A stretch of DNA of 64,000 nucleotides from Escherichia coli. GTDB taxonomy: Bacteria; Pseudomonadota; Gammaproteobacteria; Enterobacterales; Enterobacteriaceae. Every line of letters starts with the position of its first letter. Positions within the stretch are counted from its first letter, which is position 1. Below are positions 41,693-42,051 of this stretch, piece by piece. The translations under genes were made by a program, and so were the position numbers. Where the stretch lies: assembly GCF_013122565.1 (NCBI RefSeq), contig NZ_CP053258.1; one strand, given 5' to 3'. The notes under the pieces are model-generated. The model saw only the letters and a program-made list of their open reading frames with translations. It made no database searches and was not told where the DNA came from.

Positions 41693-41747
41693 AGAAAAGC
41701 CCCGAGTGATATTTTACTATCAACCCGAGGCCTCCTATATGCAGAAC
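41693..41747 (-). ncRNA. sokC: Sok antisense RNA of the hok/sok locus (sokC)
   Basis: Position projected from the recalled K-12 sokC/mokC overlap; no independent promoter mapping. Confidence 0.4.
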
Positions 41748-41948
41748 ACATGTAGAGTGCCTCTTACTGACCGTAAGGTCAAGGAGAAGAGAGCAATGAA
41801 GCAGCATAAGGCGATGATTGTCGCCCTCATCGTCATCTGTATCACCGCCGTAGTGGCGGCGCTGGTAACGAGAAAAGACCTCTGTGAGGTTCACATCCGA
41901 ACTGGCCAGACGGAGGTTGCTGTTTTCACGGCTTACGAATCCGAGTAA
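41739..41948 (+). CDS. mokC: MokC, in-frame N-terminally extended reading frame of hokC
   Basis: ATG at 41739 in frame with hokC gives 69 aa; ORF-track entry 41706..41948 starts at an upstream GTG. Confidence 0.55.
   Translation: MQNTCRVPLTDRKVKEKRAMKQHKAMIVALIVICITAVVAALVTRKDLCEVHIRTGQTEVAVFTAYESE
41796..41948 (+). CDS. hokC: Hok-family type I toxin HokC (Gef-like membrane peptide)
   Basis: 50-aa peptide MKQHKAMIVALIVICITAVVAALVTRKDLCEVHIRTGQTEVAVFTAYESE, a Hok-family signature. Confidence 0.85.
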   Translation: MKQHKAMIVALIVICITAVVAALVTRKDLCEVHIRTGQTEVAVFTAYESE

Positions 41949-42051
41949 GAGCAACGGCGGGGAGTGATCCCCGCCACTTTACAGGTGCTCGCATATCTTC
42001 AACGCACCCTATTTTTACCCAGGCCTGCCCACGAGCAGGCTTTTGGGGAGG

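What the first reader, a model, noticed from the sequence alone, without database searches (positions are those of the whole stretch)
41693..42051. hok/sok type I toxin-antitoxin locus with no IS186 beside it
HokC (50 aa) and the in-frame MokC frame (69 aa) are intact, and only about 100 bp separate hokC from dnaJ. In K-12 I recall an IS186 copy (insL) between hokC and dnaJ, which is thought to disable the locus. Here the locus has no such insertion and may be functional. Two hairpins follow hokC (ggcgggga-gtga-tccccgcc, and gcctgc-ccacga-gcaggc with a T-run).
Basis: partly seen in the sequence, partly recalled or inferred. Interest (0 to 1): 0.4.

Follow-up and report, generated by a model that had tools for sequence, protein, structure and literature searches.

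The report
Uninterrupted hokC/sokC toxin-antitoxin locus
This is the ordinary, uninterrupted form of the E. coli chromosomal hokC/sokC small-toxin/antisense-RNA locus, found in about 70% of complete E. coli genomes; the laboratory strain K-12, with IS186 inserted beside it, is the minority form.

Summary
hokC (41796-41948, 50 aa), the in-frame mokC (41739-41948, 69 aa) and both hairpins are present, and 103 bp separate the hokC and dnaJ stop codons. HokC is identical in amino acids to K-12 HokC.

It contains every cis element of a hok/sok system:
- the Rfam-recognised leader;
- the antisense sokC gene;
- a 5' tac element predicted to pair with a 3' fbi element lying between the two hairpins;
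- a terminator-like hairpin.

In K-12, IS186 sits inside hairpin 1. That hairpin matches the published IS186 target GGGG(N6)CCCC exactly, and the insertion cuts fbi off from the mRNA.

The IS-free state is not special. It occurs in 3791 of 5426 complete E. coli genomes. IS186 occupies the same site in both orientations in roughly 820 and 950 genomes.

IS-free hokC is already published (strain ECOR24, Pedersen and Gerdes 1999). As summarised in a 2026 preprint, it did not kill plasmid-free cells and was not activated by rifampicin. So "intact" is supported, while "functional" remains unproven. Already known; low interest.

The parts
41634..41639 (+). Putative -10 box (TATAAT) of the hokC/mokC mRNA promoter; no good -35 box
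   Evidence: Read. It lies 6 nt upstream of the inferred mRNA 5' end and aligns with the promoter region of an R1-type hok locus. The consensus scan did not call a full promoter. Inferred, not shown.
41646..41798 (+). hokC mRNA leader, matched by Rfam RF01794 'sok'. The model is on the hok mRNA strand and ends at the hok AUG.
   Evidence: 117.6 bits against a gathering score of 59, E=7e-28, full-length model match 1-157.
41646..41657 (+). tac element (GGGUGCUUGAGG), the inferred 5' end of the hokC mRNA
   Evidence: Pairs with 41997-42009 in the predicted fold of the full-length mRNA, with pair probabilities 0.945-1.0. It aligns with the GGCGCUUGAGG 5' end of an R1-type hok mRNA.
41689..41747 (-). 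sokC antisense RNA gene, covering the mokC start codon and its upstream ribosome-binding region
   Evidence: Coordinates mapped from the MG1655 annotation sokC b4413. The fold gives a free 5' tail followed by a GC-rich hairpin and UUUU, -25.8 kcal/mol, z=-4.8.
41754..41782 (-). Putative sokC promoter: -35 TTGACC (41782-41777), 17-nt spacer, -10 CACTCT (41759-41754), start 7 nt downstream at 41747
   Evidence: Read and aligned with the R1-type Sok promoter region. The sequence is identical to K-12. It is invariant in six E. coli genomes apart from one spacer base. The -10 is weak and the consensus scan did not call it.
41739..41948 (+). mokC reading frame (69 aa), overlapping hokC in frame
   Evidence: It differs from K-12 MokC only at residue 2, Gln versus Leu.
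41796..41948 (+). hokC (gef) toxin gene, 50 aa
   Evidence: Pfam PF01848, E=1.8e-24. The amino-acid sequence is identical to K-12 HokC.
41934..41937 (+). UACG motif at the Tyr47 codon, corresponding to the published TadA A-to-I editing site (Tyr to Cys) of hokC
   Evidence: Sequence. Editing of hokC mRNA in K-12, about 9%, is reported in PMC12214031. Editing in this strain was not tested.
41956..41975 (+). Hairpin 1, the 3' stem-loop just after the hokC stop codon. It is homologous to the GGCGGGC-GCAG-GCCCGCC hairpin of R1-type hok mRNA.
   Evidence: Fold of -18.5 kcal/mol, z=-4.7; alignment. Its role as the stop point for 3' processing is inferred from the R1 model.
41959..41972 (.). Empty IS186 target site GGGG(AGTGAT)CCCC, the only such site in the 64-kb window
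   Evidence: Pattern search; consensus from PMC5009759. K-12 and strain JNQH497 carry IS186 here, with GGGAGTGATCCC (41960-41971) present on both sides.
41997..42009 (+). fbi (fold-back inhibition) element CUUCAACGCACCC, the pairing partner of tac
   Evidence: It is invariant in six E. coli genomes. In K-12 it lies on the dnaJ side of IS186.
42023..42044 (+). Hairpin 2 plus TTTT, the likely intrinsic terminator of the hokC mRNA. It is also the first structure downstream of dnaJ on the other strand.
   Evidence: Fold of -18.2 kcal/mol, z=-2.9 on the + strand. On the - strand the hairpin is not followed by a U-run. The real 3' end of the mRNA has not been determined.
42052..43182 (-). dnaJ (context), convergent with hokC
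   Evidence: ORF list; this region is 98.9% identical to K-12 dnaK-dnaJ.

Best explanation
The region from about 41634 to 42044 is the uninterrupted, probably ancestral form of the E. coli chromosomal hokC/mokC/sokC type I toxin-antitoxin locus, lying convergent with dnaJ.

The mechanism below is inferred by homology with plasmid R1 hok/sok.
1. A weak promoter makes an mRNA of about 370-400 nt starting near 41646.
2. In the full-length mRNA the 5' tac element (41646-41657) pairs with the 3' fbi element (41997-42009). This holds the mRNA in a closed form that is neither translated nor bound by the antisense RNA.
3. Slow 3' trimming back to hairpin 1 (41956-41975) removes fbi.
4. The 5' end then re-pairs locally with 41697-41703, and a hairpin forms that presents the mokC start region in a loop (41742-41748).
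5. The short, unstable SokC RNA (transcribed from 41747 to 41689 on the - strand) binds this region. That blocks mokC translation, and therefore the coupled hokC translation, and triggers cleavage of the duplex.
6. If SokC is depleted, MokC and HokC are translated. HokC, a 50-aa membrane peptide, depolarises and kills or arrests the cell.

In K-12 and about 30% of E. coli genomes, IS186 has landed in hairpin 1, which is a perfect IS186 target GGGG(N6)CCCC, and has separated fbi and the terminator from the gene. This window has the empty site.

Shown here: the presence, integrity and predicted pairing of all elements, and the population frequencies. Inferred: transcription, processing, SokC control and killing.
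For: - Toxin and leader: Pfam HOK_GEF E=1.8e-24. Rfam RF01794 full-length hit, 117.6 bits against 59.
- Protein identity: HokC is identical to K-12 HokC, and MokC differs at one residue.
- Difference from K-12: three substitutions from the mRNA 5' end to the IS186 break and one in the hairpin-2 loop, none in the sokC promoter, tac, fbi or the hairpin stems.
- Closed form: tac-fbi pairing is predicted with probability 0.945-1.0, and the whole mRNA folds with z=-7.2.
- Positive control: the same procedure recovers the known tac-fbi pairing in an R1-type hok mRNA and in a plasmid homologue, with different, compensating bases.
- Refolded form: the 3'-truncated window mRNA and the IS186-interrupted K-12 mRNA are both predicted to switch the 5' end to the local partner. 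In the truncated window mRNA the loop 41742-41748 is exposed with unpaired probability 0.997.
- SokC: it folds into a hairpin followed by UUUU, with a free 5' tail.
- IS186 position: it breaks K-12 at 41960/41971, inside hairpin 1.
- IS186 target: the consensus is GGGG(N6/N7)CCCC, and the only such site in the window is hairpin 1.
- Frequency: 3791 of 5426 genomes are uninterrupted.
- Toxicity: HokC is toxic on overexpression according to the literature.
Against: - No expression data exist for this strain.
- The promoters are weak matches to consensus, and the scan found neither.
- The 3' end is not determined. It could be at the U-run after fbi (about 42017) or at hairpin 2 (about 42044). One paper quotes about 330 nt for ECOR24 hokC mRNA.
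- An IS-free hokC (ECOR24) did not mediate post-segregational killing and was not activated by rifampicin. So the last step, killing on SokC loss, may not operate as it does in R1.
- Full toxicity may also require TadA editing of Tyr47 to Cys, which is low (9%) in K-12.
Confidence: 0.9

Rival explanations
1. The locus is structurally complete but functionally inert. It is transcribed and regulated like hok/sok, yet it never delivers enough HokC to kill, so the absence of IS186 makes no phenotypic difference.
For: IS-free hokC of ECOR24 gave no post-segregational killing and no rifampicin activation, which led its authors to call chromosomal hok loci inactive. The hokC Cys at the conserved position is supplied only by low-level RNA editing, 9%. 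The promoter matches are weak.
Against: HokC protein is toxic when overexpressed. sokC knock-down is deleterious even in IS186-bearing K-12. All cis elements are conserved across divergent E. coli genomes, although at E. coli divergence levels this is weak evidence of selection.
Confidence: 0.4
2. The two hairpins are dnaJ transcription terminators rather than parts of the hokC transcript.
For: Hairpin 2 begins 11 bp beyond the dnaJ stop codon, counting from its stem end at 42040, and stays with dnaJ in K-12. The simple scan did not call it as a + strand terminator.
Against: The U-run follows hairpin 2 on the hokC strand, not on the dnaJ strand. Hairpin 1 aligns with the 3' hairpin of R1-type hok mRNA. 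The fbi element between the hairpins is complementary to the hok mRNA 5' end. Hairpin 2 could still serve both genes.
Confidence: 0.12
3. The IS-free state is derived: a K-12-like ancestor lost IS186 by precise excision.
For: None specific. IS186 is mobile.
Against: The window has a single copy of GGGAGTGATCCC with no scar. 70% of genomes are empty. Occupied genomes carry IS186 in two opposite orientations at the same site, which indicates repeated gain into an empty site.
Confidence: 0.03

Closest known systems
hokC(gef)/mokC/sokC(sof) of E. coli K-12 MG1655 (b4412/b0018/b4413)
   Same: It is the same locus at the same chromosomal position next to dnaJ. HokC is identical, and the sokC promoter, tac element and hairpin stems are identical. 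There are three base differences from the mRNA 5' end to the IS186 break.
   Different: K-12 has IS186A inserted in hairpin 1, at window 41960-41971. This separates fbi and hairpin 2 from the gene. K-12 also lacks the 4-kb island upstream of hokC.
IS-free hokC/sokC of wild E. coli (ECOR24), Pedersen and Gerdes 1999, Mol Microbiol 32:1090
   Same: It has the same architecture: hokC without IS186, with fbi intact (as described). The same arrangement is seen in 3791 of 5426 complete genomes, for example strain XJ6.1 at 99.3% identity.
   Different: The window carries minor polymorphisms (41718 T, 41743 A, 42034 A) that also vary between strains.
hok/mok/sok (parB) of plasmid R1
   Same: It shares the gene layout, the Hok/Gef toxin family, the overlapping mok frame, the antisense position over the mok start, tac-fbi pairing, and a GC-rich hairpin right after the stop codon.
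   Different: The nucleotide sequence is diverged; over the full locus only a 53-nt stretch aligns by blastn, at 83%. The toxin is 50 aa rather than 52 aa. The tac and fbi bases differ in a compensating way. The R1 hairpin (GGGC GCAG GCCC) is not an IS186 target. R1 is plasmid-borne and proven to kill plasmid-free cells, whereas chromosomal hokC was reported not to.

Membership tests
[quoted passage not shown] | Small (about 50 aa) Hok/Gef-family membrane toxin ORF | tested here: met
   PF01848, E=1.8e-24, 85.5 bits against a cut-off of 22. Identical to K-12 HokC.
[quoted passage not shown] | Overlapping upstream mok reading frame through which hok translation is coupled | tested here: met
   An in-frame ATG at 41739 gives a 69-aa MokC that ends at the hokC stop codon. 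Translational coupling itself was not tested.
[quoted passage not shown] | Structured mRNA leader of the hok family | tested here: met
   Rfam RF01794 full-length match, 117.6 bits against a gathering score of 59.
[quoted passage not shown] | Cis-encoded antisense Sok RNA gene, with its own promoter and terminator, overlapping the mok translation start | tested here: met
   The region is identical to the annotated K-12 sokC except for one base. A hairpin followed by UUUU and a free 5' tail are predicted. The -35 TTGACC and -10 CACTCT boxes were read from the sequence but are weak and were not found by the scan. Expression cannot be tested here.
[quoted passage not shown] | Long-range 5' tac to 3' fbi pairing that locks the full-length mRNA | tested here: met
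   12 pairs between 41646-41657 and 41997-42009, with probabilities 0.945-1.0. The positive control on R1-type mRNA is recovered. This is a prediction only, without probing.
[quoted passage not shown] | 3' processing to a truncated, refolded, translatable and Sok-accessible mRNA | not testable with these tools
   Only the predicted refolding of a truncated mRNA is available. Processing requires RNA analysis.
[quoted passage not shown] | Killing on loss of the antisense RNA (post-segregational killing or rifampicin activation) | not testable with these tools
   The literature reports a negative result for IS-free hokC of ECOR24 and a deleterious sokC knock-down in K-12.
IS186 insertion hot spot | Target motif 5'-GGGG(N6/N7)CCCC-3' | tested here: met
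   GGGGAGTGATCCCC at 41959-41972 is the only match in the window. The consensus is from PMC5009759. The site is occupied in both orientations in other genomes.

The most novel reading that the evidence does not exclude
The GC-rich 3' hairpin that protects the hokC/hokE-type hok mRNAs doubles as a perfect IS186 landing pad. It has been hit independently several times: in both orientations at hokC, at hokE, and possibly at other hok paralogues. The resulting split of about 70% empty to 30% occupied may reflect selection acting on a toxin that is still conditionally active in IS-free strains such as this one, for example under nutrient limitation or phage attack, rather than mere target-site chance.
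Probability: 0.15. Interest if true: 0.35.

Novelty: already known. Interest (0 to 1): 0.1.

Why it matters
Mostly as a corrective. K-12 is the atypical strain at this locus, and the IS-free hokC/sokC seen here is the common and probably ancestral form. Anyone studying chromosomal hok function should use such strains rather than K-12. Hairpin 1 is an exact IS186 target, which gives a simple mechanical reason why IS186 sits beside hokC and hokE. No open question is newly made testable, because IS-free hokC was already cloned and tested in 1999.

Tried and rejected
- The consensus promoter/terminator scan found neither the hokC nor the sokC promoter, nor hairpin 2. The promoters were therefore assigned only by alignment to K-12 and R1-type loci.
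- SaiSree et al. 2001 (PMC95536), on the IS186 consensus, is not held. Lee et al. 2016 was used instead.
- Pedersen and Gerdes 1999 is not in the library. Its results are cited second-hand.
- The junction counts do not add up. The IS-bearing counts (831+953 on the hokC side, 821+943 on the dnaJ side) exceed the 1635 genomes without a contiguous junction by about 130-150. Possible causes are hok paralogues that also carry IS186 (hits H59 and H70), or short IS remnants that the tool joins into one place. This was not resolved, so the percentages are approximate.
- Conservation of tac, fbi and the hairpins in six genomes was considered as evidence of selection. It was rejected as inconclusive because overall divergence is only about 2%.
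- A scan of other species' genomes for hokC next to dnaJ was considered and not run, because the cost was not justified for a known locus.
- A local tRNA-Arg-like hairpin around the UACG editing site was not supported by folding the short segment alone (z=-0.6).

Full report
**Observation.** The stated features are in the sequence. hokC is 41796-41948 on the + strand (50 codons plus stop). mokC starts in the same frame at 41739 (69 codons plus stop). The 50-aa product matches Pfam HOK_GEF (E=1.8e-24) and is identical to K-12 HokC. MokC differs only at residue 2, Gln for Leu. dnaJ runs on the - strand and its stop codon is at 42052-42054, so 103 bp separate the two stop codons. Hairpin 1 (41956-41975, -18.5 kcal/mol, z=-4.7) and hairpin 2 (42023-40, followed by TTTT; -18.2 kcal/mol, z=-2.9) fold as described. 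No IS186 end occurs anywhere in the window. MG1655 does carry IS186A/insL1 between dnaJ and hokC.

**Full extent of the locus.**
- Rfam RF01794 matches 41646-41798 end to end (117.6 bits against a gathering score of 59). This model describes the hok mRNA leader and ends at the hok AUG.
- A perfect TATAAT box lies at 41634-41639, just upstream. No -35 box is recognisable.
- Mapping the K-12 annotation places sokC on the - strand from 41747 to 41689. There it overlaps the mokC start codon and its upstream region.
- SokC folds into a GC-rich hairpin followed by UUUU, with a free 5' tail.
- Its presumed promoter is -35 TTGACC, a 17-nt spacer and -10 CACTCT, at 41782-41754. It is identical to K-12 and aligns with the Sok promoter region of an R1-type locus, but it is a weak consensus match.

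**The fbi element.**
- In the predicted ensemble of the full-length mRNA it pairs with the 5' end GGGUGCUUGAGG (41646-41657). Pair probabilities are 0.945-1.0, and the whole molecule folds with z=-7.2. This corresponds to the tac-fbi lock of hok mRNAs.
- As a control, the same procedure recovers the known tac-fbi pairing in an R1-type hok mRNA. That locus is L007; its Hok is 100% identical to the R1 Hok sequence I gave from memory. The procedure also recovers the pairing in a plasmid homologue. The paired bases differ in a compensating way in both.
- If the mRNA is cut back to hairpin 1, the 5' end is predicted to pair locally with 41697-41703, as in the Rfam consensus. A hairpin then exposes the loop 41742-41748, next to the mokC AUG, with unpaired probability 0.997.
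- These are predictions, not measurements.

**Comparison with K-12.** From the mRNA 5' end to the IS186 break, the window differs from K-12 at three positions. These are 41718, 41743 (the MokC Q2/L2 change) and a silent Leu codon at 41828. A fourth difference lies in the hairpin-2 loop at 42034. None falls in the sokC promoter, tac, fbi or a hairpin stem. At least three of the four sites also vary among five other E. coli genomes.

The K-12 dnaKJ side aligns up to window 41960, and the hokC side aligns from 41971. IS186 therefore sits inside hairpin 1, with GGGAGTGATCCC on both sides. Hairpin 1 contains GGGGAGTGATCCCC, an exact instance of the published IS186 target GGGG(N6/N7)CCCC (PMC5009759). 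It is the only such site in the 64-kb window.

The insertion leaves fbi and hairpin 2 on the dnaJ side. Folding the interrupted K-12 mRNA predicts that its 5' end takes the local, unlocked pairing. This fits the published view that IS186 disrupts fbi and normal processing.

**Population frequency.**
- The uninterrupted hokC-dnaJ junction is found in 3791 of 5426 complete E. coli genomes.
- Junction queries detect IS186 in the K-12 orientation in 831 genomes on the hokC side and 821 on the dnaJ side.
- They detect the opposite orientation at the identical site, for example in strain JNQH497, in 953 and 943 genomes.
- These counts overshoot the 1635 non-contiguous genomes by about 130-150. The cause was not resolved, so the figures are approximate.

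Two orientations at one site mean at least two independent insertions. In K-12 the paralogue hokE carries IS186B in the homologous hairpin, GCGGGGAGTAATCCC. Other strains show further damage. One has IS150 in the hokC leader as well as IS186, and another has hokC replaced by IS fragments.

**What is known.** IS-free hokC was described from strain ECOR24 by Pedersen and Gerdes (1999).
- HokC is toxic on overexpression.
- K-12 gef/hokC is reported to be transcribed and regulated by its antisense RNA despite IS186.
- A CRISPRi screen found sokC knock-down strongly deleterious in MG1655.
- hokC mRNA is A-to-I edited at the Tyr codon that corresponds to a conserved Cys, at about 9% in K-12. The UACG motif is intact here at 41934-41937.

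**Conclusion.** However, this is the ordinary majority allele of a well-known locus. Whether it is "functional" cannot be read from the sequence, and the existing experiments are mixed. The mechanism given is the R1 hok/sok mechanism transferred by homology. Element presence and predicted pairings are shown here; transcription, processing, antisense control and killing are inferred. Novelty: already known. Interest: low.

Noticed in passing
window 37524-41534: A 4-kb segment lies between the nhaA upstream region and the hokC locus and is absent from K-12, where 74 bp take its place. It encodes a 426-aa hypothetical protein (37535-38815, -), a sulfatase (38909-40438, -) and an OmpK/Tsx-like outer-membrane protein (40422-41183, -). 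It is present in 1271 of 5426 complete E. coli genomes, in two diverged versions of about 99% and about 86% identity.
   Followed up: partly
L008 (K-12 606500-609200), 1490-1512: In K-12, hokE has IS186B inserted in the homologous 3' hairpin (GCGGGGAGTAATCCC|ATAAGCG), at the same distance from the stop codon as in hokC. The hok 3' hairpin of this subfamily is therefore a recurrent IS186 target.
   Followed up: partly
L004 (JNQH497) 2584/2585 and 3921/3922, compared with L001 (K-12): IS186 occupies the identical hokC site in opposite orientations in different strains, with the same flanking GGGAGTGATCCC. Roughly 820-830 genomes have one orientation and 940-950 the other.
   Followed up: yes
L005 (WCHEC005215) and L006 (Z1324SEC0014): One strain has IS150 inserted in the hokC leader, near window 41721-41725, in addition to IS186. 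Another has lost hokC altogether, with IS1 and a partial transposase between nhaA and dnaJ.
   Followed up: partly
L003 (E. fergusonii plasmid pEF-3) 601-1000: A plasmid-borne 'hokD'-annotated locus next to a baseplate gene is 74% identical to the whole hokC locus. It includes tac, an fbi-like partner and a GGGG(AGAGAT)CCCC hairpin.
   Followed up: partly
window 41934-41937: A UACG motif sits at the HokC Tyr47 codon. The surrounding sequence CGGCUUACGAAUCCGAG resembles, from my own memory, the tRNA-Arg(ACG) anticodon arm. It is the published TadA editing site type. A short local fold did not support a stable hairpin.
   Followed up: partly
window 43183-43260 (-), 57041-57160 (-), 19457-19509 (-), 51715-51757 (+): Other Rfam hits in the window are tpke11 between dnaK and dnaJ, the thr operon leader, ES003 and ES036. 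They are consistent with the window being the start of the E. coli chromosome map in reverse orientation.
   Followed up: no
E. coli genome searches: The IS186 junction counts sum to 130-150 more genomes than lack a contiguous junction. Some of the ≥80%-coverage junction hits lie in second records of the same genome (861 records for 821 genomes). Other hok paralogues also have IS186 beside them (H59, H70).
   Followed up: no
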